Under the pieces are notes generated by a model. It saw only the letters and a list, made by a program, of their open reading frames with translations, made no database searches and had not been told where the DNA came from. The translations under genes were made by a program, and so were the position numbers. This document shows positions 2 to 18,336 of a stretch of 64,000 nt of DNA, in pieces (the stretch's first letter is position 1; each line of letters opens with the position of its first letter). This DNA is from Cyanobacteria bacterium P01_A01_bin.123 (GTDB taxonomy: Bacteria; Cyanobacteriota; Cyanobacteriia; Phormidesmidales; Phormidesmidaceae). The stretch covers positions 43,336 through 107,335 of the forward strand of contig JBCBZT010000027.1 of NCBI GenBank assembly GCA_039815185.1. The letters are read 5' to 3'.

Positions 2-2041
2 GATGTTAACCTGCGCCAGGTCAATTTTGCCCAGGCAGAATTTGCCCAAACTGCCTTTGCCCAAACCTTTAGCAGTATTTTAGCGATCGCTTTTAGCCCC
101 GATGGTGAGCTAATAGCGACAGGAGATAACAATCTTGAAATTCGCCTATGGCGGGTAGTCGATGGTCAACTCCTGTTAACGTTGCAAGGACATATGGACT
201 GGGTGCGGACTGTCGCGTTTAGTCCCGATGGGCAGACGCTGGCCAGTGGCAGTGATGACAACACGATACGCCTATGGGATGTGCAAACCGGGAAATCTCT
301 TAAAACCCTGGAAGCCCATACAGGCCGAGTCTGTGCCGTCATGTTTAGTCCGAATGGCCTTACCCTAGCCAGCAGCAGCGAAGATCAAACCCTGCGCTTG
401 TGGGATATCCGTAGCGGTGAGTGCCTGAATGTGTTGACAGGCCATACTCAACAGATCTGGTCTGTTCAGTTTGACGCTGAAGGCAAACGACTGGTCAGCG
501 CAGGGGAAGATAATACTATCAAGCTCTGGGATGTGCAGACTGGCCATGGTCTCAAAACCCTGAAAGGGCATACCAATTGGATCGGGTCGGTTGCTTTTAG
601 CCCGGATGGGCAACTGGTAGCAAGCGGCAGTCATGATCAAACAGTGCGTCTTTGGGATGTTGGGACTGGGCAATGCCTTAAAACCTTGAGCGGTCACACC
701 AACTGGATTTGGACTGTAGCTTTCAGCCCAGATGGGCAGATCCTCGCTAGTGGCAGTGAAGATCGTGCAGTGCGGCTGTGGGATGTTGATACGGGCCAAT
801 GTCTCAAGATTCTAGAAGGGCATACCCATCGAGTATGGGCCATTGCTTTCAGTCCTAATAATGCAATGCTGGCCAGTGGTGGCGGCGATCAGACCGTGCG
901 CTTTTGGGAGATATCTCAATTAGGGGCGGTGCTGTCCTATCCAGGAGTTGGTTCAGATAGCGGTTCAACTAAGCCACAACTCATTTCTGGTCAGTGCTTG
1001 AGAACACTGCAAGGCTATACCCGTCAGGTGTGGACGGTGACCTTTAGTCCCGATGGGCAGTCTCTTGCCAGTGGCGGTGACGAAACGTTTATTCGGCTCT
1101 GGCAGGTTGATAACAGCCAATGCTACAAAACCTTAACCGGTCATACCCATCGCGTCACTGCCGTTGCCTGGAGCCCCGATGGTACGATGCTGGCTAGTTG
1201 TGGGGAAGATCAAACCATTCGACTCTGGAATGCGCACACCGGGCAATGCCTTAAAACCTTGAGCGGGCATACCAAGCAACTCTGGTCCGTGGCCTTTAGC
1301 CCCGATGGTGCCCTCCTGGCCAGTGGGGGGGAAGATCAAACAATCAAATTGTGGCAGGTTGAAACAGGAGACTGCTTAAGAACCATTGAAGGGCATACCA
1401 ACTGGATCTGGACCCTCGAATTCAGTCCTACTGCCCCATTGTTGGTCAGCAGTAGTTTTGACCACACCGTGAAACTCTGGGATATCCAAACCGGCGATTG
1501 TGTCAGAATCCTGGCAGGTCACCAGGGCTCGGTAATGGGCGTGGCTTTTAGCCCCGATGGCACCCGCCTGGCCAGTGGCAGCATGTACGATCAGACCGTC
1601 CGAATGTGGGATGTGCAGACAGGAGATTGCTTAAACGTTTTGACGGATCAGCTGGTTATGTGTCTTGCCTTCTCTCCACCAAACAGCGCATCATCCTCAA
1701 CGCAAGCCTCCATTCTCGCCGTAGGGGGGGTGGATCAGAGCTTAAAGTTTTTGCATCCTGACACTGGCAAAGGGATCAGCCTGCCGCAAGCCCACCAGCG
1801 TTGGCTCTTTGACCTGGGATTTAGTCCAGATGGTCAAACCCTGGCCAGTAGTAGTGCCGATGAGACAATTAAGTTGTGGGATGTGAATACAGGAGAGTGC
1901 CTGAAAACCCTCAGACCCGATCGCCCCTACGAAGGTATGAACATCACTGGGGCAATTGGTTTAACCCAAGCCCAAAAGGCGGCTTTACAAAGCTTGGGAG
2001 CAATCGATCAAGACGAAAATGCAGGTGCTGTCCTCCAATAA
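2..2041 (+). CDS. WD40 repeat protein, 5'-truncated by the window edge (probably the C-terminal part of an NB-ARC/NACHT-WD40 protein)
   Basis: Many GH..W..V.FSPDG..LASGS.D.T..LWD repeats. The frame is open from position 2 ([23 protein letters not shown], pentapeptide-like linker). The C-terminal [20 protein letters not shown] tail is typical of cyanobacterial NB-ARC-WD40 proteins. Confidence 0.9.
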
Positions 2042-2089: not shown

Positions 2090-5000
2090 TTACTCCCAAA
2101 GCAACACGGAAGGCAGTTCATCCTGGGCTAACCGCAACAGTTCATAACCAATCCCAGTGGTGCCTTGGAAAAAGCCAGGGTTAAAGACAGAATTGGGCAG
2201 GTTAGCAAACAATTGGTATGCGCCGGATTGGTTGGCGCGGGCAACCACGGCAGCAGCTTTTTGTGAAGCAGCTTGTCGCCAATCTGGGCGATTGCAGCGT
2301 TGGGCTCCTACTAAAAGGACTTCAGCCACACCCAAATTACCGCAACAGAGATGATCAATGCCTTTTAGGCCTTGTTGTTGGGTAGTTTCTAGGGCAATTT
2401 GCAGGTCTTGCACCAGGGCTTCTGTCGGCCAAACATCCAGGCTACCCAGGCGTCCTAAGCCAATGCCAGCCGCGCCGTGGCACCATTGCACCGGAAAGGT
2501 AGGGCGACTTTCTGGATTGAGGTCGCGCAGGTCAGGCCAGTTTGCCTGAGTAGGAGAAAACACACTGCGTTCGTAGGCCATCCCCTCTAGGGCGGCTTCT
2601 CGATAGTCTGGGTCATCGGTAATGGCGTAGAGGCGCAAGAGGGCGTAGGCAATCCCAGTGGCCCCATGGGAGAAACCCGTCAGGGGTTTTTCGGCCAAGT
2701 TTTTCCAGGCTTTGGGGCCTGACGCTGGGTGGGTTTGTTGGCTGAGCAGGTGTTGTCCACAGGCGATGGCTTTTTCTAAAACGGTGATCTCTCCTGTCAC
2801 CTGATAGAGCGACAGCGATCCTAAAATGCTGCCCGCCGCACCGCTGATGATGTCCAAGGCTTGGTCAGCGGCAATCATCTCTGGTGTGATCATGGTTGCC
2901 AGGGTTTGCGCCTCCGTCAGGAAGGTTTCATCTTCTAAAAACTGACCCACCTTCACAAAGGTATAGATCATCGCAGTGATGCCAGTGGCAATGCCGATGC
3001 CCATCCGTCGCGCAAAGCGTTGGCGCGCGTCTGAAGTCATGCTGTTCAACTGTCGCCGTAGGGGGTGCAACACTCGCAGGGTCAGATCGCGGTAATGGGG
3101 CTCCTGGGTAACGTGGTACAGCCCCGCCAGGAACAGCGCTACGCCACAGCGCCCATCGTAGAGACTGTCATTGAGGAGCTGGAGTTGATAGCGATTAGCT
3201 TGGGGGACAAACCCCAGGCTGATCCAGTTGAGGCTGCCGTCGGTATCTTGCAAGGCTCTGACCTCAAGGTCGGCTGCGATCGCACGGGCAGCCTGGATGA
3301 GTTGTTCGCGACTGAGCAGGGGCAGCTCGTTTGCCTGCCAGGGCCGGGCCTCATCGACGGACGGTTGGGCCACCCTGGCATAAAAGGCTCCCTGGATAAT
3401 AGCCACCTGCTGGGCCAGGTTGGTTTCATTCAGGGCCTGGATTTGTGAGATGACATAGTCATAGCTGGGGCGCTTAAAATACTGAGAAATGGTCTGGATG
3501 TTTCTCAAAATCAAAGCATCGTTGCTGGTATTGGCGGTAAAAAAAGGAATATCCAGCTGCTCCATAGCCCGCAGCTCAGCCTGGACAATGGGCCAGGCAT
3601 TGGGCTGTTGTTGAGCTAACACAAAAGCCCGACTGAGGTAGTCCAACTCAATGCTATAGTCCACCCCATGCTTGAGATGATCTGGTGTCCAGGCTTTATT
3701 TAACAGAATGTAGTAGATGCGAGTGGCGCGCATAATAAACCGCACCTGCTGATTTTGTAACCCTGCCAATGGCCCCCCGGCGGCCAGCAGCAGACTTTGC
3801 TGCTGCATCAGGAACCGATACATGCACTCAAACCCGGTCACAATATGGACTTGATAGTCGTTGGGTGACAGGGGCGTATCGCCCAAATGGGGCACATTCT
3901 TGGCAATGGGTGCGGTGACTGTCTCGGCGCGCAAATGCATGTCGTCGGTATTCACCGCCTGCCAGCGGAGCACCTTGCAGGGGGCGGGTTGTGGGTCAGT
4001 ACTGCCCAGGCCACTGATGTCAAAGGCAAGCCGCTGATCGGGGCTAAAATCCCACTGGGGCAGCAACCCTGTACGCAAGACAGAGTCGCCAAACAGCTGG
4101 GTAGATTCTGTCTCTAGGGCCAGGGCATCCGGTGAATTTTCGATCAGGTGGACATCGTGTTGCAGCAGAGATTCTATATCAATCAGCACTAAATGCTCAC
4201 CGCTGGCGATCAGGTTTTCATGGTGGCAGTCGGTGCCCCGCAACACATAGATTAAGCACGACAACATGCCTGCCCGTTGGTAAAAGCGCTCAACGGCGGC
4301 TTCATCATGGCAGGGCAACTGTTCAACATATTCGACCCAGCCATATCCATCGCGATTAAGCACCTGGATGACTTTGAAATCGAGCAGTTGATTGTGTTGA
4401 TTACACCAGGTCAGTAGATGATTCCAGGCCACCTCTAAACCGGAATCTTTGGGTTTGTAGACCAGTGTGAGGCCCGACTCAAAGGTGAGCAGCAGCACCG
4501 TACGCCCCTGGTTGTGCGGGTCAGACAGGGATGCCTGGAGGTCAGTCACTTTGCCCAGGGGCGCATTCTGACACTCAGAGTTAGATGCTTGAGCCCCCCC
4601 TACCCCCCAATATGGGGTGTTGTTGAGGCTAAAATCTCCTGAGCTTGGAGAAAATCGCTGCTGAATGTCAGTTTGGTCTTGGGCCAGCCGCTGGATGAAT
4701 TCAGCCGTGGCATCGACCCACAGATCAACCGCCACCGCAATCAGCCGCCCCAGGACAGGATAGGTTTGCAAGAAACTGAGCAATCCATCTGCCAGTAAGT
4801 CCGTCACAAATTGATGGTACTGGGTTTGGCTATGACCTGTTTCAGCCTCTTCGATACCCAAAAGATTCAGTAAGTTTTGCCCCAGAGATCGTCCTTTAGA
4901 AAACTCAAAATCGAGGGTTTTGTTAGAAATTTGGGTGAGCCGTTGCAACAGGCTACGTTCTAGCGTGGTGTAAGCTTTCTCTGAAAGCAGAGAAAGCGAC

Positions 5001-5482
5001 AGGATCTTGCCAGTGAGTTGGGTCACTCCCAGGCGCGTGAGCAAGTTTTGTCTGGCGACTTGCAGGGTGGGGAGCCAGATGTCTTCAAAGGGAGTGGGAT
5101 GGTCAGGATCGCTCAGCCAGACCAGATCAGGGTTGGGGGTGAACCCTGCGCCAGTTTGGATCATTTGTCGCAGGGTCTCGGCCCAGGCGGGTAATGGCTG
5201 CCCCGCTGCAAACTTCACGGTACCCAGATAAGGCCGAACTTCGTCCAGGCTGAGTCCGTCCCATTCTAAGCGTTTCTGCAAAATCTCTAGCCTGTTTTCA
5301 TGGGCGACGGTTTGACACCACCGCTCGCAGCGGCGATCCATGGCTGATGGGTTGCTCTGGTGGGGAGCAACCGTAAAGCGATCAGCATCGAGTCGCTCCC
5401 ACAGGAAGCTAGCCTCGGCAACGATCGTGGCTAAATCGCCGTCGGTGAGTTGAGGGGATTTTGCAATTAGGGTTGTAGACAT
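2090..5482 (-). CDS. lanM: Class II lanthipeptide synthetase (LanM, ProcM-like)
   Basis: Dehydratase motifs YKPK, TDCHHENLIA, LIDIESL, RATRIY. LanC-like cyclase motifs LYDGRCG, GFSHG, WCHGAAG, HLCCG. 1130 aa. Confidence 0.93.
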   Translation of the reverse strand: MSTTLIAKSPQLTDGDLATIVAEASFLWERLDADRFTVAPHQSNPSAMDRRCERWCQTVAHENRLEILQKRLEWDGLSLDEVRPYLGTVKFAAGQPLPAWAETLRQMIQTGAGFTPNPDLVWLSDPDHPTPFEDIWLPTLQVARQNLLTRLGVTQLTGKILSLSLLSEKAYTTLERSLLQRLTQISNKTLDFEFSKGRSLGQNLLNLLGIEEAETGHSQTQYHQFVTDLLADGLLSFLQTYPVLGRLIAVAVDLWVDATAEFIQRLAQDQTDIQQRFSPSSGDFSLNNTPYWGVGGAQASNSECQNAPLGKVTDLQASLSDPHNQGRTVLLLTFESGLTLVYKPKDSGLEVAWNHLLTWCNQHNQLLDFKVIQVLNRDGYGWVEYVEQLPCHDEAAVERFYQRAGMLSCLIYVLRGTDCHHENLIASGEHLVLIDIESLLQHDVHLIENSPDALALETESTQLFGDSVLRTGLLPQWDFSPDQRLAFDISGLGSTDPQPAPCKVLRWQAVNTDDMHLRAETVTAPIAKNVPHLGDTPLSPNDYQVHIVTGFECMYRFLMQQQSLLLAAGGPLAGLQNQQVRFIMRATRIYYILLNKAWTPDHLKHGVDYSIELDYLSRAFVLAQQQPNAWPIVQAELRAMEQLDIPFFTANTSNDALILRNIQTISQYFKRPSYDYVISQIQALNETNLAQQVAIIQGAFYARVAQPSVDEARPWQANELPLLSREQLIQAARAIAADLEVRALQDTDGSLNWISLGFVPQANRYQLQLLNDSLYDGRCGVALFLAGLYHVTQEPHYRDLTLRVLHPLRRQLNSMTSDARQRFARRMGIGIATGITAMIYTFVKVGQFLEDETFLTEAQTLATMITPEMIAADQALDIISGAAGSILGSLSLYQVTGEITVLEKAIACGQHLLSQQTHPASGPKAWKNLAEKPLTGFSHGATGIAYALLRLYAITDDPDYREAALEGMAYERSVFSPTQANWPDLRDLNPESRPTFPVQWCHGAAGIGLGRLGSLDVWPTEALVQDLQIALETTQQQGLKGIDHLCCGNLGVAEVLLVGAQRCNRPDWRQAASQKAAAVVARANQSGAYQLFANLPNSVFNPGFFQGTTGIGYELLRLAQDELPSVLLWE

Positions 5483-6531
5483 GGGGGCGACGCTGAAGGT
5501 GTTGGGGGCGGTTGATTCTGGAGGGGAGGGGGCGACAGAGGTCGCTTCTGTCCTCGGTAAAGTCGCTGTAGTCGTTTGCGATATTCCACTAGAATTTGGT
5601 CAAAACGGCCAAGGCACATGCCAGTCAAATCCACCCGCAGATCGGCAATTTTTTCCAGCATTTGCTTGTCGCGTTTCACCTCATGATCGAGTACCCATCG
5701 CAAAATATGCTTCTGCACTAGATGGAAGATCAAACGCCCCCAGCGAGGGTTGGCTAGGTAATGCAACGAGATGCACTGGGTTTGATGGTCATTGATCGGG
5801 TTGAAGAAAAAGACTGAGCGTAACCGTTCCTGACGAGGTTGACCGGTTTTGGAATTTTCCCAATACATTTCGTAGGTGTGGTAAACCGGGGAGAAGTGCA
5901 TGGTCAGGTGATTGAAAAAGCGATCGCCGCCGTACATCCCAAATAACTTTTCTAGGAGCCAAGGGAGGGGGCGTTGGGGCACAATCGACAATAGCTGGAT
6001 ACGATCCTCATGGCTAAAGTCAAAGATCGGCTCGACTACAGCCGTGTCGGCCAGGTTATACCCAAAGAAGGTATGGCTGGTGGGGGCATGCTCCATCTCG
6101 GCAAAGATATCCACCACCAGCTCCAGGGGCACATCAATCCGATGCTCTAGGGTGCAGCTAAACTCATATTCAGGAAAATTTAGCTCGGGGAGTTGGGCCT
6201 TGCTGTCTGATGCTTTAACCCAGATCCACCTATACTGCTCTGTTGTTTCCAGGCTATGGGCACAAGGCCTGAGGTTAGGGGTACTCAGACTCTGGCCCTG
6301 ACCATTGGGGGCATAGCACCAGCCATGGAAAGGACACACTAAGCGATCGCCCTCGACCCAGCCTTGACTCAGGCGCATCCGACGGTGGGGGCAGCTATCC
6401 TTGAGGGCACCAATCTCACCAGTCTGGGTGCGAAACAGAACAAATTCTTGTCCGCAGAGCTGGATGGCAACCGGCTGCTGCGTTAACGCCTGACTTTGCA
6501 GGACAGGATGCCAGTGATCGAGTTCAGTCAT
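5467..6531 (-). CDS. Rieske [2Fe-2S] non-heme iron oxygenase
   Basis: CPHR...CPFHGW Rieske motif; EMEHAPTSH and a downstream Asp (RDKQ) as likely mononuclear-iron ligands. Stop overlaps the lanM start. Confidence 0.88.
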   Translation of the reverse strand: MTELDHWHPVLQSQALTQQPVAIQLCGQEFVLFRTQTGEIGALKDSCPHRRMRLSQGWVEGDRLVCPFHGWCYAPNGQGQSLSTPNLRPCAHSLETTEQYRWIWVKASDSKAQLPELNFPEYEFSCTLEHRIDVPLELVVDIFAEMEHAPTSHTFFGYNLADTAVVEPIFDFSHEDRIQLLSIVPQRPLPWLLEKLFGMYGGDRFFNHLTMHFSPVYHTYEMYWENSKTGQPRQERLRSVFFFNPINDHQTQCISLHYLANPRWGRLIFHLVQKHILRWVLDHEVKRDKQMLEKIADLRVDLTGMCLGRFDQILVEYRKRLQRLYRGQKRPLSPPPLQNQPPPTPSASPPCLQP

Positions 6532-8204
6532 GAGATCCCTCCTAGGGTTAAATACTGGGAGTTGGAACGGTCTGGGGTGGTTTGGTATAGATCATCAATC
6601 GCGGTCTGAAAATAAGCCTGAATTGCAGTACGGCGCAGCTTGCCATTGGCGGTGAGCAAGCCATTGGCCTGACTGAAGGGCTCACGGGTGAGGTAGAATT
6701 TGCGAATTTTTTGATAGTGGGGAACGGTCTCGTTGAAGTGGTGAATGGCGATCGCTAACGTAGACTCATCGACTGAACCCGTAAGAATGGCACAGAGAAA
6801 GGGTCGCCCATGACCCACCAGCACAGCTTGTTCCATGCCGTCACAAGCCTCGATCAGTCGTTGTTCTAAGGGTTCTGGGGCAATGTTGTGGCCTGAGGTC
6901 GGCACCAAGAGATGTTTGAGACGACCAATGATCCGCCAATGACCTGAGGCACTGACTTCGGCTTGATCACCGGTATGGAACCAGCCCTCGCGGATGACTT
7001 GAGCCGTTGCTGCTGGATTGTTCCAGTACCCGGCAAAGATATTGGGCCCCCGGCAAACCAGTTCGCCTTGCGGCGTTAAGCGCACTTCACAGTCTTGAAT
7101 AGCATGACCGACGTAGCCCGGTATGGGTGATTGAAGGGGATCGAGGGTAACCAGACCTGTGGTTTCAGTGAGGCCATAGCCCTGGTAGATCGGGATGCCA
7201 ATCATGGCAAACCAGCGTTGGGTTTCGATCCGCAAGGGGGCCGAGCCACAGATAATCAGTTGGAGATGGGGGGCGATCGCCCGTTTGATTTGGGCCAATA
7301 GGGTTAGGCTCACGCCTTTAAAGATCAAGGCGTCAACCCAGCGGTGTCCTGTCAGCGAGCGGTCATAAGCCTGCTGGCCAACTGTAAACAGCCATTGGGC
7401 AATACGCCCCTGCTGTTTTAAGGCTTGCTCAATGCCACTGCGGAACCGCTCCAGCACCATGGGCACGGTCAAAAAGAACGCCGGATCGGCATAGCGGAGA
7501 TCCGCTGCCAGATTGTCTAACTGGGTGCATAGGGTTAACGGACGCCCTTGATACAGCTGGGCCCAAAGGATGAGATGGGCGGGGGCAAAGCAAAAGGGTA
7601 AAAAGTGAAAGGCACCGCCTTTGTCGGTTGACGGCTGGGTTGCAGCTTCAAGCCGCTGGCTGATTAAGGGAATCATGTAGTCAAAGTTGGCGCGGGTGAG
7701 CATCACCCCCTTAGATGCCCCGCTAGTGCCCGAGGTATAGATCAAGGCGATCACTGCATCCGCTGGAATGGGGTAAGGCGCTGCCTGGGTGGGTTCAGCG
7801 TCAAATGCGTCATCGACTAAGGCGATCGCACCGGGAGTAAGCCAGATCTCCGTCATTGCTTCCCCAAGCGCTGAATCCCCGACCAGTAGCAATTTGGGTT
7901 GGCAGTCTGCCAGCATTTTGGCTAGTTCTGGCAGACTCTGGCGGCTATATAGCGGTACTACAATTGCCCCTTCTGCCAAAATCGCCAGCTCCAGGGCAAC
8001 CCAGCGAGCTGAGTTGGGGGCCAGTAATGCCACGCGATCGCCGGGACATACCCCCTGATTTGCAATAAAGGTACGGGCACGACGAATCTGCAGCGCTAAC
8101 GCTGCCGCTGAGATATCGACCCATTGTTGATCATGGATTTCCCTGAGAATCGGTTGATTCTGCAGCTGATGTAAGTTTTGGACAATCGTTTCCAGAAAGT
8201 TCAT
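6528..8204 (-). CDS. AMP-dependent long-chain acyl-CoA ligase-like adenylating enzyme
   Basis: YTSGTSGASKG, YQGYGLTET, WFHTGD, GRLK and NGKLRR motifs. Likely start MNFLETIV at 8204; the ORF extends to 8264. Confidence 0.88.
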   Translation of the reverse strand: MNFLETIVQNLHQLQNQPILREIHDQQWVDISAAALALQIRRARTFIANQGVCPGDRVALLAPNSARWVALELAILAEGAIVVPLYSRQSLPELAKMLADCQPKLLLVGDSALGEAMTEIWLTPGAIALVDDAFDAEPTQAAPYPIPADAVIALIYTSGTSGASKGVMLTRANFDYMIPLISQRLEAATQPSTDKGGAFHFLPFCFAPAHLILWAQLYQGRPLTLCTQLDNLAADLRYADPAFFLTVPMVLERFRSGIEQALKQQGRIAQWLFTVGQQAYDRSLTGHRWVDALIFKGVSLTLLAQIKRAIAPHLQLIICGSAPLRIETQRWFAMIGIPIYQGYGLTETTGLVTLDPLQSPIPGYVGHAIQDCEVRLTPQGELVCRGPNIFAGYWNNPAATAQVIREGWFHTGDQAEVSASGHWRIIGRLKHLLVPTSGHNIAPEPLEQRLIEACDGMEQAVLVGHGRPFLCAILTGSVDESTLAIAIHHFNETVPHYQKIRKFYLTREPFSQANGLLTANGKLRRTAIQAYFQTAIDDLYQTTPDRSNSQYLTLGGIS

Positions 8205-8256
8205 GGGTTGTTCTCCGAGTAGGCGGTTCTCTGGGTCTCCAACCAAATAGAAAGAC

Positions 8257-9684
8257 CTAGGCATATTGCATCAGCAACTGAGTCGTGGTTGCCGATAGTG
8301 GGGGCAAATAGGCGTACCAAGCAGGCGATCGCTCAATTTGAGGAAAATCTGGATACACACGAGCCACTTCGCCCATAAAGTCGCGCCCCATTTGTCCCAT
8401 CAACCGCAGTTGCCGAACCACGGTTTGGGCAATCCTTTGGGCAATCGCTTCCCGGTCTTGATCCAGGCGATGCAGCATAGGTAGCAATTTCTCTCCCAGA
8501 CCGGGATCGTCAACCTCCAGCAGTAGGTCGAGATGGTGGCGATCGCTCATCAAATTGCGAATGCGTTCATCCATCGTCACGCCTACAGAGGGCACCAGCC
8601 CCGGCATAGAGGTAACAATCGCGTGGAAACGGGAACTCACAAGAAATGCGCTCTGGCGCAAAATACCGACCAGTTCATGCAGGGTGTATTGATCACTGAT
8701 GAAACAGGGCGCTGGTGATGAAAGCTGGGCATTGAGGTCATAGCAAGCCCGTCGATCCAGGCGCTCCATACCCACCACCACGGTGAAAATATCCCGCTGC
8801 TGGCTAAAGGCATTCACGGCCTGGGCCAACCCCTGAATATAGGTGCGATATTGACGATCCGCTGTGGCTGAATGGTGGTGAAAATAAAGGGATTTGTAAT
8901 GCTGTTCCCGATATTTGCCAGTCAAACCCTGGTGAATAAACTTGCGCAGACTGGGCTTGATTGGCCACCAAAAGGGATTGATGGGACAAAGGGTTAGAAC
9001 CGGACGAGTTCCATCCCAACCAGCCTGTTTGAGTAAATCGACGCCCCGTTGCGGCAAGTCGGGTTCAAACGTCCAGGCGGTGTCGGCTCCCGCCGTGCTG
9101 CGAATCCTTAACTGTTGACTGAGTAAGGTTTGAGAGGGCTGATTTCGGCAAAGGATGAGCGAATTTTGGCATTGGCGGCGAACGAAATGTTGCAAACTGG
9201 CATTCATCGCCCCTGCTTCGGCCCCGTAACCAACGCTGAGTTTTTCCTCAATGGCAGCCAACCCCAAGGCGGCTGACATCATTGTGGACAAACTATCGGC
9301 AAATTTTGATTTAAACATCGAGCCCTCACAAGCAATCACCCCATGGTGTTGAGGGCACTCGCGAGCAAGAAACTGCGGAAAAATATGGGGCAATCGCACC
9401 TGCTTGGCACCCTGAAAATAGTCTGCCGTTAGAGTCGGATCAAGGGTTGTCACCGTTAGGTCTGTGGATTGACCCAGGAGGTGCTGGAGTTGCCGCACAA
9501 TCTCACTAACCCGCACATCAGCCCCGGTATTACGAGCCCCGTTGTAACCTGCTAGCAAGAGTTTGAGTGGTTTTCCCGGTCGCCATTGTTCTTGGGGCCA
9601 TCCCAGGGTGCGCTTGATGCGAGTCGCTTGGGTATAGCCTGTGCAGAGGAGTTGTAGGGTTTGGTCAAGGTCAAGGGGGTTCAT
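8257..9684 (-). CDS. Polysaccharide pyruvyltransferase-family (GT-B-like) protein
   Basis: LLAGYNGARNTGAD, LCRNQPS, GADTAW and VSSRFHAIV resemble the GYYG..N.GD / R / DxA / RxH pattern of the family. Likely start MNPLDLDQ at 9684. Confidence 0.65.
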   Translation of the reverse strand: MNPLDLDQTLQLLCTGYTQATRIKRTLGWPQEQWRPGKPLKLLLAGYNGARNTGADVRVSEIVRQLQHLLGQSTDLTVTTLDPTLTADYFQGAKQVRLPHIFPQFLARECPQHHGVIACEGSMFKSKFADSLSTMMSAALGLAAIEEKLSVGYGAEAGAMNASLQHFVRRQCQNSLILCRNQPSQTLLSQQLRIRSTAGADTAWTFEPDLPQRGVDLLKQAGWDGTRPVLTLCPINPFWWPIKPSLRKFIHQGLTGKYREQHYKSLYFHHHSATADRQYRTYIQGLAQAVNAFSQQRDIFTVVVGMERLDRRACYDLNAQLSSPAPCFISDQYTLHELVGILRQSAFLVSSRFHAIVTSMPGLVPSVGVTMDERIRNLMSDRHHLDLLLEVDDPGLGEKLLPMLHRLDQDREAIAQRIAQTVVRQLRLMGQMGRDFMGEVARVYPDFPQIERSPAWYAYLPPLSATTTQLLMQYA

Positions 9685-9689
9685 TGTGG

Positions 9690-9793
9690 GGGAGGGGGGG
9701 ATGGAGATGAGGGGGAGCAATAGTGGCAGGAGGGACGGGGGAGCGAGTCGTAAACGGCAACAAAGATAGCTTGCTCCCCCGCTCCCCTTGCCC
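9690..9793. repeat. GGGGAGC/GCTCCCC short-repeat hairpin within the operon
   Basis: gggggagcaa and gggggagcga are answered by ttgctcccccgctcccc about 60 bp later. Confidence 0.5.
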
Positions 9794-9803
9794 AAAAACA
9801 CGC

Positions 9804-10946
9804 TCAATCGACCAAAGCATAACCAGTGTCAGTTTCAGGCCAGGGCTGATAAGGGAACTGGCAGTTGTGTTCTACTAAAAAGCGATGGAGGGGGGCTGCG
9901 TAGGTAATGAAGGGGGATGGAGCGGTTCCGAGTTCTTGGGTAATGCGGGTGTTGTCAAAAACGGTATTGAACGTCAAGTAGGGCATAAATACTTTGAGTC
10001 GGGTGGCTGATCGGGCGATTCCCCACTGACGGGGAGTGGCGGCTAAGGCTTGGAGTAACCATGTCAAAGGCGATCGTAGTGGTGGCAAAAATAGGGGGGA
10101 TACCCCTTGGGTGGCCGTGGCTAGACATTGGACAATCTGTTGGTAGGTGGGAGAGTGTATGCCTGCACTCAGGTGATAAATGGTGTGGGAGAGTTGTGCT
10201 TTTTGATGCAGGGTGGCGATCGCTTGGCCGACATAATCGGCAGGCACAATGTCAATTTGCCAGTCTGGCTGTAGCGGTATCACCCCAACTTGGTTGAGTA
10301 GGGCAAAGGCTCTGGCTGTGTCGAACTGAGTTGTTTGGGGAAAGCGGCTATCCCCGAGGACTGTACTAGGGCGAAAGATGACATGGGGAACATCTGGCAA
10401 TAATTCTTGGATGAGGTGCTCACAGAGTTTTTTGGTGGCGCCGTAGGGGTCGTAGTCTGGTCTGTCCCATTGAATCGCGTCAGTCTCGGTCACGACTTCG
10501 TTTTGGCGAATTCCAGCAACGGAGGTAGTGGAGATAGCACTGAAGCGGCGGAGGCCATGATCGCAGTGAGCGGCGCGGGCCAATTTCAAGACGGCAAGCG
10601 TACCGCGCACATTTACGTTGTGACACGCTTGAAGTGATTTGCGATTCAAGATCGCGGCGGCATGAATCACAGACTCTGTGGAACCGACTAGTCGATCCCA
10701 GTTCTGCAGGGACAATCCCAAGCGGGGTTGGGTCATGTCTCCTAAATAGAGATCTATACGGTTGAGTGCCTGATGAAATTGCGTCGGGGTCATGTGCAAT
10801 TGGAAGGCCTGCCACAACCGCGATCGCGCTGCATCAGTAGAGGTTGCCCGGACTAATAGGGCCAGGCGATCGCAGGTCGTATTTAAGAGTTCATTGGCAA
10901 CGTAGGCACCGATATAGCCCGTTGCACCGGTCAATACAATCGTCAT
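9804..10946 (-). CDS. Extended SDR / fatty acyl reductase (male-sterility-like) oxidoreductase
   Basis: TGATGYIG Rossmann motif, HAAA, NVRGT, catalytic YGATK, FRPS. Confidence 0.85.
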   Translation of the reverse strand: MTIVLTGATGYIGAYVANELLNTTCDRLALLVRATSTDAARSRLWQAFQLHMTPTQFHQALNRIDLYLGDMTQPRLGLSLQNWDRLVGSTESVIHAAAILNRKSLQACHNVNVRGTLAVLKLARAAHCDHGLRRFSAISTTSVAGIRQNEVVTETDAIQWDRPDYDPYGATKKLCEHLIQELLPDVPHVIFRPSTVLGDSRFPQTTQFDTARAFALLNQVGVIPLQPDWQIDIVPADYVGQAIATLHQKAQLSHTIYHLSAGIHSPTYQQIVQCLATATQGVSPLFLPPLRSPLTWLLQALAATPRQWGIARSATRLKVFMPYLTFNTVFDNTRITQELGTAPSPFITYAAPLHRFLVEHNCQFPYQPWPETDTGYALVD

Positions 10947-10959
10947 GGGATGCTCACAT

Positions 10960-12417
10960 CTATAGCTCAGGCTGTAAGGCGTTCAATAAAGTCCGTTTGG
11001 GCAAGGTGCATTTGAGCTGCTGCCGAGTATCAACCAAAAACCCTGTCCGCAGAAAATACGCGAAATAGGTGTGTAGGAGCTGCTCATTAACGCTGGGACA
11101 GTAGATAGCCGCTCTATCTAGGACGGTTTGGGTCTGTTGGCTATCGAATTTGGGGCGTCTAGCCTGCTGATATAACTCTGGTAAGGTCAGATCTGTGTCT
11201 GGCAGTTGCCGTCGAAAGAATGGCCGCAGCGGCACTAGGGGATTGTCCTGGGAATAGAGTTGGTGGAGCTGATCGAGCCAGTCATGGTAAGCAATTTGCT
11301 TCACAGCAAACCCAAAGGATTGTATCCAGCTAACCAACTGATGCCAGGGGTAGGGTTTGGGATTGGTGAGATGGAAGGTTTGACCGATGGCGTCTGGCTG
11401 CTGTGACAGATAAATAATGCTGCGGCTGACATAGTCTACCGGGGCTAAATCGAGCTGGTAATCCAGGTCAGGGGCAGTGCCCATCTGCAGACAACCCTTG
11501 ATCAGGCGACAGATCAGATCATCGGTGTTGACGACCCCTGTTTGGCTGTGGCCAGAAATAAAAGGCGCTCGGTAAATGCAGACGGGCAAGCCGCGATCGC
11601 GGGCGCTGATCATTAGTTTTTCGGCGACCCACTTACTTTGGGAATAGCCCAGGCCAATGCCCTCGCTATGGATTAACGGGTCTGACTCCAGGATTTGTTT
11701 GTGGGCATAGGCCGGGGAGTCAAACACCGCAACGCTGGAAACATAGTGAACGGGTGCGTCCTGACTGCAACTCGCCAACCGTAAGACTTCCTGGGTACCT
11801 TGAACATTCACTGATCGCAAGCGGGCGTAATCATAAACGTAGTTCAACAATGCGCCACTGTGGTAAATGCAGCCAATTTGATCCGCGAGGTGCTGAAATT
11901 GCTCGGGTGAGAGTCCGAAGTAGGGCTGACCTAAATCGCCAATGACGGGCATAATGCGATCGCAATTAGTCTCATGCCAGAGACCATAGGCTTGGAGATT
12001 AGTCTGAATACGCTGCTTTCCTGAAGACACATCAGCAGCTCTCACCAGGCAGTAACAGTTAGCCTGAGTCCGCTGCAGCAGCTCTTGGAGGATAAAAGCC
12101 CCTAAGAACCCAGTAGCTCCGGTCAAGAAAATTGCCGATGGGCGGTGCTGCGAGTCTGGGGGCGTTGCTTTGGGTTGAATACTGGAATCCAGCACAACTT
12201 CTGAGGTTAAATCTCCCAGGAAAAAACCGTCTGATTCGGTTGCAATGGCAGACTGCTGTTGAACTAATGCCAAAAGTGTGGGTTTATGTTGGCGTAGCGT
12301 CTGTTGCAGCTTTGGGGTTAAAACCCCTTTGGGGGCTTTAATGTGGAGCTGATCCTGCTTAGCCCAGAGCGTTGCCCCCCGTTGGCGGAGAGCACTTAGC
12401 AATTGATCAGGGGTCAT
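10960..12417 (-). CDS. Stand-alone thioester reductase (R domain) with N-terminal TubC-type docking domain
   Basis: FLTGATGFLGA, GDLGQPYFGL, NVQGT, GYSQSKWVAE. The N-terminal LSALRQRGATLWAKQDQLHIKAPKGVLT..LRQHK resembles TubC_N. Confidence 0.87.
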   Translation of the reverse strand: MTPDQLLSALRQRGATLWAKQDQLHIKAPKGVLTPKLQQTLRQHKPTLLALVQQQSAIATESDGFFLGDLTSEVVLDSSIQPKATPPDSQHRPSAIFLTGATGFLGAFILQELLQRTQANCYCLVRAADVSSGKQRIQTNLQAYGLWHETNCDRIMPVIGDLGQPYFGLSPEQFQHLADQIGCIYHSGALLNYVYDYARLRSVNVQGTQEVLRLASCSQDAPVHYVSSVAVFDSPAYAHKQILESDPLIHSEGIGLGYSQSKWVAEKLMISARDRGLPVCIYRAPFISGHSQTGVVNTDDLICRLIKGCLQMGTAPDLDYQLDLAPVDYVSRSIIYLSQQPDAIGQTFHLTNPKPYPWHQLVSWIQSFGFAVKQIAYHDWLDQLHQLYSQDNPLVPLRPFFRRQLPDTDLTLPELYQQARRPKFDSQQTQTVLDRAAIYCPSVNEQLLHTYFAYFLRTGFLVDTRQQLKCTLPKRTLLNALQPEL

Positions 12418-12752
12418 AGGACGATTTCCTCCTCCTCCATTTCCCTAGCGTTGCCACAATATTGTGCTAGGGCCGCGATCGTGGGATAGGTGTAGGGTAG
12501 GGTGGGCTCTAGTTTATGGCCTAGCCAGTTTTCTAAATCTCCGGCCATACCAAAAACCACGACTGAATCCAAGCCATAACTGTCAAAGGTGGCATGACTG
12601 TCGATGTCATCGTTGGTCACCTCCAAAAGTTCAGCCAGGTAGGCAACTAACCACTTCTGAATGTCATCGGGTGTTTGAGACGGGAGACTAGCACGATGGT
12701 TGTTAGCCAGCGGAGAAACCTGTTGAGGACTTTGAAGTTGTAAGCGATTCAT
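12414..12752 (-). CDS. Acyl carrier protein
   Basis: IQKWLVAYLAELL...FDSYGLDSV...YPTIAALA phosphopantetheine motif. Likely start MNRLQ at 12752. Stop overlaps the next ATG (ATGA). Confidence 0.9.
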   Translation of the reverse strand: MNRLQLQSPQQVSPLANNHRASLPSQTPDDIQKWLVAYLAELLEVTNDDIDSHATFDSYGLDSVVVFGMAGDLENWLGHKLEPTLPYTYPTIAALAQYCGNAREMEEEEIVL

Positions 12753-12822
12753 GATCTTAATGTTTGGAGCATTGGGTCTAGACAATGAAAATTGGGTATT
12801 GTGGTTGCGAATTCGTTGGTTA

Positions 12823-15492
12823 TCAGACTCGGCATTTCGCAGTTTCCACGGTTGCCGCCGAAGGCACTTTGACATCCCACACCAGACCTAACCGAGTTAA
12901 TGCCCGAATCAGCCAACCGCCAATGTCAATTTGCCACCATGCCAGTCCGAAAAGTGCTGAATAGGCAAAGGCGTGATGATTGTTGTGCCATGCTTCTCCC
13001 AGCGTAGGGATTGCCAGCCAGACATTGTTAGTACTCTGCTCTCGGGTCACAAAAGGACGTTGACCGAAGCAATGACAAATAGAATTGATGCTGAACGTGG
13101 ATTGTTGCACAAGCCAGATACGAACTAGCCCACCCCATAAAAATCCTTCCCATGCCCCCGACCATGAGACACTGAGTCCACCCCCGAGGAGGGTAGGGAT
13201 AATCAGCCCTAATGCCGTCCAGAGATAGTATCTGCTACTCAGCCAATTGACTAAGGCATCTTGCATCAGATCCTTAGCAAAGGCATGAGTATTGGTGATT
13301 TCTGGAATTAGAATCCACCCACTATGCGCATGCCATAAACCCTGGATCAATCCTCGCAATCCTGGCCCACTGAGATGGGGAGAATGGGGATCACCAGGAC
13401 TATCCGTATAGCTATGGTGCCGCCGATGCTGCGCAACCCAATAAATCAAAGGGGCTTGGGCTGCCATTGATCCGAGAATGGCCAAGCTGGTTTTGACCGA
13501 CCGATGGGCTTTGAACGCTCTGTGGGCAAAGTATCGGTGGAAACCTACCGTGATGCCAACCATGGTGGCCAGATACATGCTGCCTAAAAGACTCAGGTCT
13601 AAACCGCTAACGCCCCACTTCCAGCTCCACGCCAATGCCACGATGCAGCCCAGTAAGGGCAGCAAATTCGTAACCATGAGGTGATGCCGCTGGCGCTGTA
13701 CGAGATGGCTATGCTTAAACGTGAGGGGTGCTTTTTTGGGTGATGTCTGTAAAGCGCCTGGTGCTCCAGCAATGCTCCGTAAGTCATTGGTCAAGAAGGC
13801 GGCCCGACAAGCCCGTCGCTGAATTTTGCCGCTCGATGTCTTGGGAATACTGCCGGGTCGCACCAAGACAGCACGGTGCAAATCTAGGGCATGGTGAGTT
13901 GCGATCGCCTGCCGGATTGCAACCATCACTGCCTTGACATCCAGTTTCCTCAAGTGGCTACGTTCTATTTCTTGGACAACCACTAACCGCTCTGCCCCCT
14001 CAACATCAATGGCAAAGGCTGCACCTGCATTGGCTTGCAAAGCTGGATGACTGGCCGCTACTGTGTGCTCAATATCCTGGGGATAGTGGTTTTGCCCCCG
14101 GATGATGATCAAATCTTTGAGTCGCCCCGTTACGAAGAGTTGGCCATTGAGCTCAAACCCTAAATCGCCGGTGCGGAGGAAGGGGCCAACGCCCGTATCC
14201 GCGAGATCAGCCTGGAAGGTTTGGGCCGTGGCTTCAGGCTGTTGCCAATACCCCTGAGCCACACTCGGCCCTGAAATCCAGATCTCACCGACTTGGCCGA
14301 TAGAACATGGGGTTAGGGTTTCGGGATGCACAATGTAAAGTTGATGGTCAGGGGTAGTTTGGCCACAGCTAACAATGGTGCGATCGCTAGCGGATACTTC
14401 AACCGCCGGCACCACCTGATGCTGCTCTAAGGCAGCTCCATCAACCGGTTGCACAATCGGCTGGGTGCCCTTGTGGCCACCAGCTATCAGCAGCGTAGCC
14501 TCCGCCATGCCATAACACGGATAAAAAGCCGTCTGTCGAAAACCATAGGGGGCAAAGGTTTGACTAAATTGCGATAACGTCTCTGGCCGAATGAGCTCGG
14601 CTCCCGTAAAGGCAATATCCCAATTACTCAAATCGAGATCGGCCATCTGGTCAGGTCGAATTTTACGGACGCAGAGGTCATAGGCAAAATTAGGCCCACC
14701 ACTGATGGTGGCTCGATGCTGAGAAATTGCATGCAGCCAGCGCATCGGTTTTTGCAAAAACATTACTGGCGACATTAGCGTTATCGGGAAACCCGCGTAG
14801 AGGGGTTGGAGCACGCCGCCAATCAGCCCCATGTCGTGATACGGTGGCAACCAAATGACACCCCGGCTTTCCGAGGTATGTCCAAAGGCTTGCTGAATTC
14901 CCTGCAAGTTGTTGAGCAAATTGCCATGACTCACCATAACGCCCTTGGGTTTGCCAGTGGACCCAGAGGTATACTGCAGAAACGCTAAGGTGTCGCTGGT
15001 GATCGGCGGCGCTTGCCAATTAATTGCTTGCTCAAGGGCCAGCTGATCCGTGGAGAACCATGCCAGGGTGGCAAGATCAGGAACCTGAGCGGCTTGGTGA
15101 CTCATGGTGGCCCAGGCTGCGGTAGTCGTCAAGGCCACTGCCGCTTCAGCGTCGGCTGCGATCGCCCTAAGTCTTTCCAGGGTTTGATTGCGGCGTGGAG
15201 GATAGGCTGGCACCGGGATCAGGTTGGCGTATAAGCAGCCAAAGAAGGCGGCAATGAATGCTAACCCTGGCGGATAAATCAACAATGCCCGAGTCCCGGC
15301 TGGGTATTGAGATTGGAGTTGAGCTGCGATCGTTCGGGCTTGCAGATCCAGTGCTTGATAGGTCAAAGATTCAGACTTTGCTTCCCCATCTGTCAAAAAG
15401 GTATAGGCAATTTGATCGGGTTGGTGCAAAGCGCGATCGCTCAAAAGTTCAATTAAGGTTGAGTAATGCATAAGATCAAACTCGCTATCCAA
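12823..15492 (-). CDS. Fatty acyl-AMP ligase (FAAL) fused to a C-terminal membrane desaturase (JamB/delta-9-like)
   Basis: FLQYTSGSTGKPKG, WLPPYHDMGL, YGMAEAT, RTGDLG, KTSSGKIQR, followed by His boxes HRYFAH, HRRHH, HNNHH with hydrophobic segments. Start may be the ATG at 15471. Confidence 0.92.
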   Translation of the reverse strand: MDSEFDLMHYSTLIELLSDRALHQPDQIAYTFLTDGEAKSESLTYQALDLQARTIAAQLQSQYPAGTRALLIYPPGLAFIAAFFGCLYANLIPVPAYPPRRNQTLERLRAIAADAEAAVALTTTAAWATMSHQAAQVPDLATLAWFSTDQLALEQAINWQAPPITSDTLAFLQYTSGSTGKPKGVMVSHGNLLNNLQGIQQAFGHTSESRGVIWLPPYHDMGLIGGVLQPLYAGFPITLMSPVMFLQKPMRWLHAISQHRATISGGPNFAYDLCVRKIRPDQMADLDLSNWDIAFTGAELIRPETLSQFSQTFAPYGFRQTAFYPCYGMAEATLLIAGGHKGTQPIVQPVDGAALEQHQVVPAVEVSASDRTIVSCGQTTPDHQLYIVHPETLTPCSIGQVGEIWISGPSVAQGYWQQPEATAQTFQADLADTGVGPFLRTGDLGFELNGQLFVTGRLKDLIIIRGQNHYPQDIEHTVAASHPALQANAGAAFAIDVEGAERLVVVQEIERSHLRKLDVKAVMVAIRQAIATHHALDLHRAVLVRPGSIPKTSSGKIQRRACRAAFLTNDLRSIAGAPGALQTSPKKAPLTFKHSHLVQRQRHHLMVTNLLPLLGCIVALAWSWKWGVSGLDLSLLGSMYLATMVGITVGFHRYFAHRAFKAHRSVKTSLAILGSMAAQAPLIYWVAQHRRHHSYTDSPGDPHSPHLSGPGLRGLIQGLWHAHSGWILIPEITNTHAFAKDLMQDALVNWLSSRYYLWTALGLIIPTLLGGGLSVSWSGAWEGFLWGGLVRIWLVQQSTFSINSICHCFGQRPFVTREQSTNNVWLAIPTLGEAWHNNHHAFAYSALFGLAWWQIDIGGWLIRALTRLGLVWDVKVPSAATVETAKCRV

Positions 15493-15769
15493 AATCTGGC
15501 AGTTATCTCATCATCAAATTCAATCCAGCCAGCAAAATTGTGTTGCTAAAGATATGCACTATGAGGCTAGGGTCGAAAGATTTGTAGTCGCAAAAATCAT
15601 AAAGAAGATGGCGTTGTATAGCTGTTAATGTATGAGGAAATCGAGAAGAAGTCGGGAAGGATATAGATTCCTATCTTCTCAGCTCTATCATTTATTTGAA
15701 TCTTGAAAGGGGGGTGACATTTAAGCCAGGAAACCTGTTAATTAAAAGAGATTAGAATGATACTTTCTC

Positions 15770-16016
15770 TGTGAATGACGTCATCAATCTCTGGTTCGCC
15801 TGGGGAAAACTCATGTATTGTAGCTGCTTGATCGTACTCACGATACGACTGGACGTAAGCTGCCCGCCCGCGAATACGTCCATCGAAGTCAGGCGGCGCG
15901 ATCACAGCCTGCTCGGAGACCCCGATATCATCATCCTATTGACTTAACCAGAGTTCATTGATCCGCCGAACCATACGCCGAATAACCGCTTCATCGGACG
16001 CTTCTTGATGACGCAT
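15770..16016 (-). pseudogene. SnoaL/NTF2-like protein remnant
   Basis: Manual translation MRHQEASDEAVIRRMVRRINELWLSQ*DDDIG..VIAPPDFDGRIRGRAAYVQSYREY..HEFSPGEPEID has an in-frame TAG at 15936-15938. Fold call is by resemblance only. Confidence 0.5.
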
Positions 16017-16214
16017 GATGTTCTCCACGACCGACTAACTATGATTAGATTGAATCTGTCTGCCTAGTATCCCCAACGGGCCAAGCATTCAACGCGATCA
16101 CCTTGGACTGTTTGCAGAAATCGCAACTATGCAGGGGTATGAGACTACCCAAACTATGCAAAGACATAAGGTTACTCAGGACTCATAAAGGTGATTCTGA
16201 GACGATCCCTAAAA

Positions 16215-16265
16215 TGCCAGGAGGCGGACTTGAATCGCCGACACGAGGATTTTCAGTCCCCCTGC
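16215..16265 (-). pseudogene. 3' fragment of tRNA-Phe(GAA), probable island attachment site
   Basis: Minus strand GGACTGAAAATCCTCGTGTCGGCGATTCAAGTCCGCCTCCTGGCA gives a GAA anticodon arm, T arm and 3' acceptor strand. The D arm and 5' acceptor strand are absent. Confidence 0.85.
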
Positions 16266-18130: not shown

Positions 18131-18152
18131 ACAATTCCCTGGGTGCCTCTAT
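18106..18152 (+). repeat. 47-bp direct repeat, copy 1
   Basis: gcgcgatcgcgtgtgggccaactaaacaattccctgggtgcctctat, identical to 18942-18988. Confidence 0.95.
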
Positions 18153-18336
18153 TTAATAGTTATTAATAGTTAGCCCTCCAATTCTCGGTTAGGGCAGTGC
18201 ATCAAGTTTTCCTTTTCGATTTTGAACTCATTGGGTCGCAAAGTTATCTCTAGCACGCAGTTTGCCTCAAGTCGAAAGTAGTCAGAATTCATATTTGTTC
18301 CTGATAGTATGTACAGGCGTGCATACTATAATTGAG

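What the first reader, a model, noticed from the sequence alone, without database searches (positions are those of the whole stretch)
2090..15492. Fatty-acid tailoring line in one operon with a class II lanthipeptide synthetase: candidate new lipo-RiPP system
Seen: eight co-oriented genes (FAAL-desaturase, ACP, reductase, SDR, pyruvyltransferase-like, acyl-CoA ligase, Rieske, LanM) with short gaps or overlaps (ATGA at 12414-12417 and 6528-6531; the Rieske stop overlaps the lanM start by 16 bp). Known: characterised lipolanthines use class III LanKC enzymes with PKS/NRPS, and FAAL/ACP/desaturase sets normally feed PKS. There is no KS or condensation domain here. Inference: a desaturated, reductively released and oxidised lipid is made and may be joined to, or co-produced with, a LanM-cyclised peptide. 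I do not recognise this architecture from a described pathway.
Basis: partly seen in the sequence, partly recalled or inferred. Interest (0 to 1): 0.9.

Follow-up and report, generated by a model that had tools for sequence, protein, structure and literature searches.

The report
Ether-lipid cassette beside ordinary lanthipeptide enzyme
The eight genes are real and tightly packed, but in close relatives the peptide-cyclising gene and the seven lipid genes occur apart, so this is likely two pathways pushed together: an ordinary cyanobacterial lanthipeptide enzyme and an undescribed gene set predicted to join a fatty alcohol to a three-carbon unit as an ether.

Summary
The eight minus-strand genes, their intact catalytic motifs and the overlaps are confirmed. 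The lipo-lanthipeptide reading is poorly supported. lanM is an ordinary ProcM-type enzyme (CCG motif). Two Nif11-type precursor genes lie 6 and 25 kb downstream, outside the window. In 3 of 3 other genomes with this lanM orthologue a precursor gene sits directly upstream, and 2 of those 3 lack the lipid genes (97% and 100% complete). The Rieske gene is followed by lanM in only 1 of 4 lineages. No GNAT or condensation domain was found on the island. The SDR, pyruvyltransferase-like and acyl-CoA ligase genes come from an elb-like lipid operon of Myxococcota and Acidobacteriota (no lanM in 80 loci); this scan noted that operon before on other DNA. New here: a FAAL(-desaturase)/ACP/reductase front end replaces its fatty acyl reductase, and a Rieske oxygenase replaces the phospholipid genes. 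I infer a small free alkyl-C3 ether lipid. In favour of a link: the cassette and lanM share one island with Leptothoe spongobia, and lanM here has lost its own ribosome-binding site. Lipo-RiPP about 10%.

The parts
12823..15468 (-). Fatty acyl-AMP ligase fused to a membrane desaturase (His boxes at residues 652, 689 and 836 of the 889-aa ORF that starts at TTG 15492). The desaturase half is missing in two related strains.
   Evidence: joints 13711/13709 to 12682 in runs X2 and X5
12414..12752 (-). Acyl carrier protein with an acidic C-terminal tail (EEEEIVL), a likely docking motif
   Evidence: start matched to L089/L090; weak complex pass
10960..12417 (-). TubC_N docking domain + NRPS-type thioester reductase
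   Evidence: 45% to an NRPS reductase domain on contig C104
9804..10946 (-). Fatty-acyl-reductase-like SDR, orthologue of the elb-like operon gene
   Evidence: hit in 78 of 80 loci, mostly 45-56%; 67% in L017
8257..9684 (-). Pyruvyltransferase-family protein (PF04230), GT-B fold, CsaB-like motifs GYNG..N.G.D and SSRFH
6528..8204 (-). Long-chain acyl-CoA ligase-like adenylating enzyme, orthologue of the elb-like operon gene
5467..6531 (-). Rieske non-heme iron oxygenase; its C-terminal tail differs between lineages
2090..5482 (-). Class II lanthipeptide synthetase LanM, ProcM type (CCG motif), catalytic motifs intact, the orthologues' ribosome-binding site absent
182..2041 (+). WD40 end of a convergent 1258-aa NB-ARC-like/WD40 gene that separates lanM from its nearest precursor gene

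Best explanation
The eight genes lie head to tail on one strand but likely belong to two separate pathways, brought into contact by a likely loss or move of the precursor genes that lie between Rieske and lanM in Leptothoe spongobia. (A) LanM likely dehydrates and cyclises the two Nif11-type precursors encoded 6 and 25 kb downstream (core WSGSPRCLEG, one predicted ring), as ProcM-type enzymes do; no lipid is attached. (B) The seven upstream genes are predicted to make a small free ether lipid. FAAL loads a fatty acid on the ACP. The optional desaturase adds a double or triple bond. The ACP docks by its acidic tail on the TubC_N domain, and the reductase releases a fatty alcohol. The PF04230 enzyme joins a PEP-derived three-carbon unit to that alcohol as an ether. 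The ligase activates the new carboxyl as a CoA thioester, the SDR reduces it, and the Rieske enzyme oxygenates the product. Shown: gene content, motifs, distribution, gene order in relatives. Inferred: the deletion, every reaction and the product. Confidence 0.65 is for the two-pathway reading; the ether chemistry itself is about 0.35.
For: lanM without the lipid genes: G477 (100% complete) and G468 (97%) carry orthologues 69% and 67% identical, directly behind Nif11-type precursors, with no transferase hit at E 1e-5, no Rieske orthologue and no SDR hit. Lipid genes without adjacent lanM: L090 continues into DUF2515 and L089 into an IS1-like gene; a contig of run X5, 96% identical over 1099 bases, leaves the window sequence at 5486, four bases before the lanM start, and runs on for 800 unlike bases; L. 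spongobia has 8.9 kb with 12 precursor-like ORFs in between. The cassette has 74-86% identical relatives, while no LanM between 72% and 99% identity was among the 120 listed of 671. SDR and transferase sit in a lipid operon with HAD-fatty acyl reductase (65 of 80 loci), enoyl-CoA hydratase (65), second ligase (55), YegS kinase (52), PlsC (43) and CDP-alcohol transferase (29), lanM 0 of 80. The FAAL/ACP/reductase trio stands where that operon has its fatty acyl reductase, so both front ends would supply a fatty alcohol. No GNAT on contig C70 (0 of 60 genome hits); no condensation or PapA hit on C70:1-62000. The three orthologous lanM genes share the upstream signal ATTTAGAGGACAGCTAAAATG, which the window lacks. 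ACP tail with TubC_N: weak pass, 0.37 against best control 0.01 (mark reached by 51 of 78 solved and 2 of 108 mismatched pairs, but at 0.60 or under by 5 solved and by all 4 mismatches that passed; runs agree in at least 90% of contacts; partner pLDDT 76; a textbook pair that may pass from memory).
Against: The physical link is old. The only other genome with the cassette among 173 has an orthologous lanM 8.9 kb away on the same strand, inside an island of about 55-60 kb shared with this genome, and both LanMs fall in one six-member clade (FastTree support 1.0). G477 looks like a deletion form of the same island (menD, menE, precursor, lanM), so the ancestor probably had both parts. The overlap recurs in three more samples and probably in two NCBI contigs (equal contig lengths of partial Rieske and LanM), and lanM would now depend on the upstream genes for translation. 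L089/L090 and the X5 contig are too short to exclude a lanM further on. Only four lineages hold the cassette, two with a damaged front end. The fold is plain GT-B: best match PimA (Z 21.5, rmsd 3.4, 326 aligned), Pvg1p only rank 31 (Z 16.6, rmsd 3.4, 257 aligned), so PEP as donor rests on sequence family alone. The hydratase of the parent operon is absent.
Confidence: 0.65

Rival explanations
1. One lipo-RiPP pathway: the lipid, perhaps an alkyl-ether acid, is activated by the acyl-CoA-ligase-like enzyme and joined as an amide to the N-terminus of a LanM-cyclised core after leader removal.
For: 16-bp overlap and loss of lanM's own ribosome-binding site; cassette and lanM on one island in 2 of 2 genomes with long contigs; precursors directly behind the Rieske gene in L. 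spongobia; some adenylating enzymes form amides directly (recalled: NovL type).
Against: Orthologous lanM without cassette in 2 of 3 other genomes; Rieske followed by lanM in 1 of 4 lineages; the ligase is the orthologue of a gene of peptide-free lipid operons; no GNAT or condensation domain; an ACP docked to a reductase would release the chain, not hand it on; the cores share no acylation site and the local core has no Lys.
Confidence: 0.1
2. The lipid cassette works with the second menaquinone gene set and DUF2515 of the same island and makes a naphthoquinone-lipid hybrid; lanM is a bystander.
For: DUF2515 abuts the cassette in 2 of 3 lineages with known neighbours; menB is a second copy on the island in both genomes; menG/F/D/B/E/A are 67-94% identical between the two islands.
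Against: G411 has DUF2515 next to a menH-like gene without SDR, transferase or lanM hits (1840 contigs, 90% complete); in this genome the men block is on the other strand and 10 kb from the Rieske gene; no linking enzyme identified.
Confidence: 0.12
3. The GT-B enzyme transfers a sugar, not a pyruvyl unit, and the cassette makes an alkyl glycoside; lanM is separate.
For: Glycosyltransferases and UDP-GlcNAc epimerases lead both fold searches; the Pfam score is only 2 bits over the cut-off.
Against: Whole-length profile match to the genome's own CsaB (95.7%, E 8.5e-9) with both motifs aligned; nearest Atlas clusters are 88-96% PF04230 and CsaB models align at TM 0.70; a CoA ligase next door fits a product with a free carboxyl.
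Confidence: 0.06
4. The cassette is a decaying remnant with no current product.
For: FAAL-desaturase is reduced to a 183-bp stump in L089/L090; FAAL-desaturase, ACP and TubC_N are missing at the L. spongobia locus; desaturase missing in X2 and X5.
Against: All eight frames are open with catalytic motifs intact in the window; the X2/X5 joints keep FAAL and ACP in frame by coordinate arithmetic; the five core genes are whole in all three fully seen lineages.
Confidence: 0.07

Closest known systems
Prochlorosin/cyanotin systems (ProcM, SyncM with Nif11 precursors; PMC10783134 and bioRxiv 10.1101/2020.03.13.990614, passages read)
   Same: LanM with CCG motif, Nif11-type leaders ending in GG, diverse Ser/Thr/Cys cores, precursors away from lanM
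   Different: Only two precursor genes with one core found here; lanM overlaps a lipid gene set
Selidamides (kamptornamide, phaeornamide, nostolysamides; PMC8784127 and PMC13647313, passages read)
   Same: Cyanobacterial LanM plus Nif11/NHLP precursor; the known class II lipo-lanthipeptides
   Different: They use a GNAT on Lys/Orn side chains and fatty acids from the primary pool; no GNAT on this contig and no Lys in the local core
Lipolanthines, goadvionins, lipoavitides (PMC8784127, PMC13647313, bioRxiv 10.1101/2023.10.25.564083, passages read)
   Same: Dedicated lipid genes inside a RiPP cluster
   Different: PKS or FabH machinery and a GNAT-type acyltransferase at the N-terminus; none here, and the chain would be released by a reductase
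Myxococcus xanthus elb ether-lipid operon and elb-like clusters (as described in PMC10087280 and bioRxiv 10.64898/2026.06.23.733905, passages read; Lorenzen 2014 seen only as cited)
   Same: Adenylating enzymes and reductases for an ether lipid; the window's SDR, transferase and ligase are orthologues of genes in an uncharacterised look-alike operon of Myxococcota and Acidobacteriota
   Different: No ElbD fusion, acyltransferase, HAD phosphatase, kinase or head-group transferase; adds FAAL-desaturase, docked reductase and Rieske oxygenase; no pyruvyltransferase is mentioned in the two papers
JamABC terminal-alkyne starter (PMC10088813 and PMC9828172, passages read)
   Same: FAAL, membrane desaturase and ACP in a row
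   Different: FAAL and desaturase are fused; the ACP feeds a stand-alone reductase, not a PKS; alkyne formation untested

Membership tests
ProcM-type class II lanthipeptide system | LanM with dehydratase and cyclase motifs | tested here: met
   TIGR03897 995 bits; YKPKD, DCHHEN, IDIE, RFIMRAT, SHG, WCHG; full-length match to LicM2
ProcM-type class II lanthipeptide system | CCG zinc motif | tested here: met
   residue 1046; motif as stated in PMC10783134
ProcM-type class II lanthipeptide system | Nif11-type precursor with GG and a Ser/Thr/Cys core | tested here: met
   two genes at C70:39160-39399 and 20543-20782; TIGR03798 E 2e-5 and 7e-4, below cut-off
ProcM-type class II lanthipeptide system | Lanthionine formation on these cores | not testable with these tools
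   needs co-expression and MS
Selidamides | GNAT acyltransferase in the cluster | tested here: not met
   0 of 60 PF00583 hits lie on C70
Selidamides | Lys or Arg-to-Orn acylation site with arginase | tested here: inconclusive
   core has one Arg and no Lys; no arginase among the genes scanned, but no arginase family search was run
Lipolanthines / goadvionins / lipoavitides | KS or FabH chain builder plus acyltransferase, with a class III or AviCys-type maturase | tested here: not met
   no such domain in the eight genes; enzyme is LanM; no condensation hit on C70:1-62000
elb / elb-like lipid operon | SDR, PF04230 protein and ligase in a row | tested here: met
   the three cyanobacterial transferases form one clade (100/100) among Myxococcota and Planctomycetota rows, placement weak (82/92)
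elb / elb-like lipid operon | HAD-reductase, hydratase, kinase, PlsC and head-group transferase | tested here: not met
   none in L017; in G000 only distant hits of 27-28% for hydratase and second ligase
elb / elb-like lipid operon | Ether lipid product | not testable with these tools
   no chemistry known for the parent operon
Ketal pyruvyltransferases (CsaB, Pvg1p, WcaK) | PF04230 membership and CsaB motifs | tested here: met
Ketal pyruvyltransferases (CsaB, Pvg1p, WcaK) | Fold closer to pyruvyltransferases than to other GT-B enzymes | tested here: inconclusive
   model pLDDT 91.8; Pvg1p Z 16.6, rmsd 3.4, 257 aligned, against PimA Z 21.5, rmsd 3.4, 326 aligned
JamB-type acetylenase | ACP-dependent triple-bond formation | not testable with these tools
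   three His boxes present; nearest relatives are other FAAL-desaturase fusions at 47-54%; no named JamB sequence was on hand

The most novel reading that the evidence does not exclude
A class II lipo-lanthipeptide made without any GNAT or condensation domain: a pyruvyltransferase builds an alkyl-ether acid from a thiotemplate-derived fatty alcohol and PEP, and the acyl-CoA-ligase-like enzyme amidates it onto LanM-cyclised Nif11 cores, with the Rieske-lanM overlap fixing co-expression.
Probability: 0.1. Interest if true: 0.88.

Novelty: new variant of a known kind. Interest (0 to 1): 0.42.

Why it matters
The lipo-RiPP claim is probably a juxtaposition, a caution for calling hybrid pathways from overlaps alone. 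The seven-gene cassette still matters. It is a small, mostly soluble offshoot of a widespread lipid operon of Acidobacteriota and Myxococcota whose product is unknown, and it brings its own fatty-alcohol supply. It could be expressed in E. coli or a model cyanobacterium to ask whether a pyruvyltransferase-family enzyme makes an ether bond from PEP and a fatty alcohol. That bears on how Acidobacteria make ether lipids, which the papers read (PMC10087280; bioRxiv 10.64898/2026.06.23.733905) treat as unresolved.

Tried and rejected
Pfam Nif11 search of the genome found one unrelated gene and missed the real precursors; a profile from 11 L. spongobia precursors found them. Promoter and terminator scan: 8 and 20 sites against 12.6 and 16.7 expected, none at the Rieske-lanM joint; uninformative. 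No RNA holder listed. Lack of lanM cover in run X5 is not used as evidence, only its contig that runs on. The 800 bases after the Rieske gene in X5 gave no listed joint to DUF2515 or other DNA of C70:30001-49900 (21 joints not shown), so they remain unknown. Transferase: no plasmid match, no PDB sequence match alone or as a profile. No pyruvyltransferase among the Foldseek rows shown. ARAGORN and Rfam found nothing in the window. The precursor profile run on proteins of 150 aa or more could not find precursors and is void. The Rieske scan of metagenomes gave 4 full-length relatives among the 80 loci kept of 437; the rest match the Rieske domain only. Literature searches without a description of this layout; the library lacks most subscription papers and no supplements were opened (the selidamide and lanthipeptide mining supplements may list such clusters). 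Assembly chimera rejected. The tree used 40 rows (window, L089 and 38 of the 80 loci); the tree used 34 rows (window plus 33 of the 120 listed).

Full report
1. Observation. The reductase also carries an N-terminal TubC_N docking domain. Overlaps are 4, 4 and 16 bp as stated. With the starts that homologues support, the other gaps are 70, 13, 119 and 52 bp. Catalytic motifs are intact in all eight. Contigs from three other samples of one study bridge the Rieske-lanM joint. The host is a cyanobacterium by its relatives; the window is G000:C70:43336-107335.

2. LanM is ordinary. It is the only PF13575 gene of the genome, has the CCG motif that PMC10783134 gives for ProcM-like enzymes, and has 671 relatives at E 1e-200 or better. 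A profile built from 11 Leptothoe spongobia precursors finds two strong hits on the same contig, 6.0 and 24.6 kb past the lanM stop, both with the core WSGSPRCLEG after GG. C39 peptidase-transporters lie on other contigs (C92, C128). Among 173 genomes of the order, 9 have a LanM. Three besides G000 have the orthologue (67-69%): G478 (L. spongobia, 75% complete), G477 (100%) and G468 (97%), all of genus g158. In all three a Nif11-type precursor gene lies directly upstream. G477 and G468 have no transferase hit, no Rieske orthologue and no SDR hit.

3. The lipid genes have another history. A scan with the transferase confirmed 167 relatives and kept the best 80 loci; by record title one is a cyanobacterium (L017) and most are Myxococcota or Acidobacteriota. 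The SDR has a hit in 78 and the ligase in 74 of the 80; lanM in none (54 loci are 20 kb or longer; in L017 lanM lies just beyond the edge). Their usual neighbours are a HAD-fatty acyl reductase fusion (65 of 80), enoyl-CoA hydratase (65), second ligase (55), YegS kinase (52), PlsC (43) and CDP-alcohol transferase (29): a membrane-lipid operon. Earlier notes of this scan describe it on other DNA as elb-like (e1-2980717, e1-2108594, e1-3306763). In cyanobacteria the genes are rare: transferase 1 of 401 sampled genomes, SDR 2 of 173. The three cyanobacterial transferases form one clade (100/100) among Myxococcota and Planctomycetota rows, with weak support for the exact place; transfer from such a donor is inferred. 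FAAL and reductase are of cyanobacterial type (49% and 45% to other genes of this genome). The cassette is therefore a mosaic.

4. Gene order in four lineages. After the Rieske gene comes lanM in the window's lineage; 8.9 kb with 12 precursor-like ORFs, a methyltransferase, an aldo-keto reductase and a PpiC gene, and then lanM, in L. spongobia; DUF2515 or an IS1-like gene in metagenome contigs L090 and L089, whose cassette is 74-86% identical (a 99% identical Rieske carries a Pleurocapsa label); and 800 unknown bases in a 96%-identical contig of run X5, which leaves the window sequence four bases before the lanM start. The three g158 lanM genes share an upstream ribosome-binding signal that the window lacks. 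This fits a recent join, though divergence could also have erased it. The front end varies too: L089/L090 keep a 183-bp stump of the FAAL gene, L. spongobia has neither FAAL-desaturase, ACP nor TubC_N at the locus, and runs X2 and X5 of two studies skip the desaturase and join FAAL to ACP in frame.

5. What speaks for a link. G000 C70:4.5-59 kb and L. spongobia C7:38-99 kb share an island: GRAS fusion, ScyB-like dehydrogenase, NHNET-repeat precursors, a second men gene set, DUF2515, the five core lipid genes, Nif11 precursors, lanM and a TPR gene, at 61-94% identity for the enzymes. The two LanMs are in one clade of six (support 1.0). G477 reads like the same island with everything between menE and the last precursor removed. 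So linkage is old, but the parts are kept or lost independently. The short contigs of L089/L090 and X5 cannot exclude a lanM further on.

6. Mechanism. No enzyme of the kinds known to join lipid and RiPP is present. Selidamides, goadvionins and lipoavitides use GNATs (passages of PMC8784127, PMC13647313 and bioRxiv 10.1101/2023.10.25.564083). None of 60 GNAT hits lies on this contig, and no condensation domain was hit. An ACP tail that binds a beta-hairpin domain of the TubC type is an established hand-over (PMC13324335). Here that domain is fused to a reductase, so the chain would be released as aldehyde or alcohol. The predicted complex passes weakly (0.37 against 0.01) and may do so from memory. 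FAAL/ACP/reductase stand where the parent operon has its fatty acyl reductase, which suggests that the next three enzymes act on a fatty alcohol. The transferase aligns with the genome's own CsaB over both motifs and folds as GT-B; the fold does not fix the donor. From the known chemistry of PEP transfer to hydroxyls (recalled: MurA, EPSP synthase, ketal pyruvyltransferases) I infer an alkyl-enolpyruvate ether, activated by the ligase, reduced by the SDR and oxygenated by the Rieske enzyme, which may stand in for the missing hydratase. A 44% relative of this Rieske lies between two PapA5-like acyltransferases in L111, another lipid setting. Whether the desaturase makes an alkene or an alkyne is open; FAAL-desaturase fusions are a family of their own. 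All reactions are inferred.

7. Known and new. LanM and precursors are new members of the prochlorosin/cyanotin kind. The cassette is an undescribed variant of an operon that is itself uncharacterised. Searches for lanthipeptide with polysaccharide pyruvyl transferase, ether lipid with pyruvyl transferase and LanM with FAAL in cyanobacteria gave only unrelated listings, which I did not open; PMC8225149 notes only that L. spongobia has a lanthipeptide cluster. All papers cited were seen as search passages, not in full; the nostolysamide preprint only as a listed abstract. Walker et al. mention in one sentence that some clusters of all four lanthipeptide classes encode fatty-acid machinery; their supplement was not seen and may list this one.

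8. Verdict. Observation confirmed. Two pathways side by side 0.65 (ether chemistry about 0.35), link to the men/DUF2515 block 0.12, true lipo-lanthipeptide 0.10, decay 0.07, glycolipid 0.06. Interest 0.42, carried by the cassette as a compact test case for pyruvyltransferase-made ether bonds.

Noticed in passing
G000:C70:1-43336 (left of the window; L169-L171): Large RiPP island: many NHNET-repeat and short GG-leader precursors, three haem-oxygenase-like (PF14518) enzymes, a GRAS fusion, a ScyB-like dehydrogenase, an MvdC/D-like ATP-grasp gene and three long WD40 genes. Earlier scan notes cover the NHNET and GRAS parts.
   Followed up: partly
G000:C70:29235-38620; L017:1-7471 and L178:1-4545: A second men gene set (menG, F, D, B, E, GST, menA) with DUF2515 inside the island in both genomes, besides the housekeeping menB; DUF2515 in 3 of 173 genomes, in G411 next to a menH-like gene. 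Possibly a separate naphthoquinone product.
   Followed up: partly
window 12683-13710: The desaturase domain is a variable module: absent in runs X2 and X5, where FAAL joins ACP in frame.
   Followed up: partly
L086:6371-12703 and L206:8149-14451: A two-module NRPS with a terminal reductase follows lanM directly in L. spongobia and G468 (79% identical): another lanM neighbour, absent here and in G477.
   Followed up: no
window 16203-16263: About 55 bases 90% identical to the 3' part of the genome's tRNA-Phe gene, with further copies on C112 and C71; a possible integration scar upstream of the cassette.
   Followed up: partly
window 15740-16020 (-): Broken small ORF with an internal stop upstream of the FAAL gene, read by eye; family not tested.
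   Followed up: no
window 17531-22535 (+): Low-GC stretch (38-44%) with a GGDEF gene, a BrnT toxin gene, a 431-aa protein without family and two TIR-domain genes; possible defence island.
   Followed up: no
window 22802-27816 (+): Glutaminase, M20 peptidase, flavin monooxygenase and AtzD-like ring-opening amidohydrolase in a row.
   Followed up: no
L111:1451-5286: A 44% relative of the Rieske gene between two PapA5-like acyltransferase genes in a metagenome contig.
   Followed up: partly
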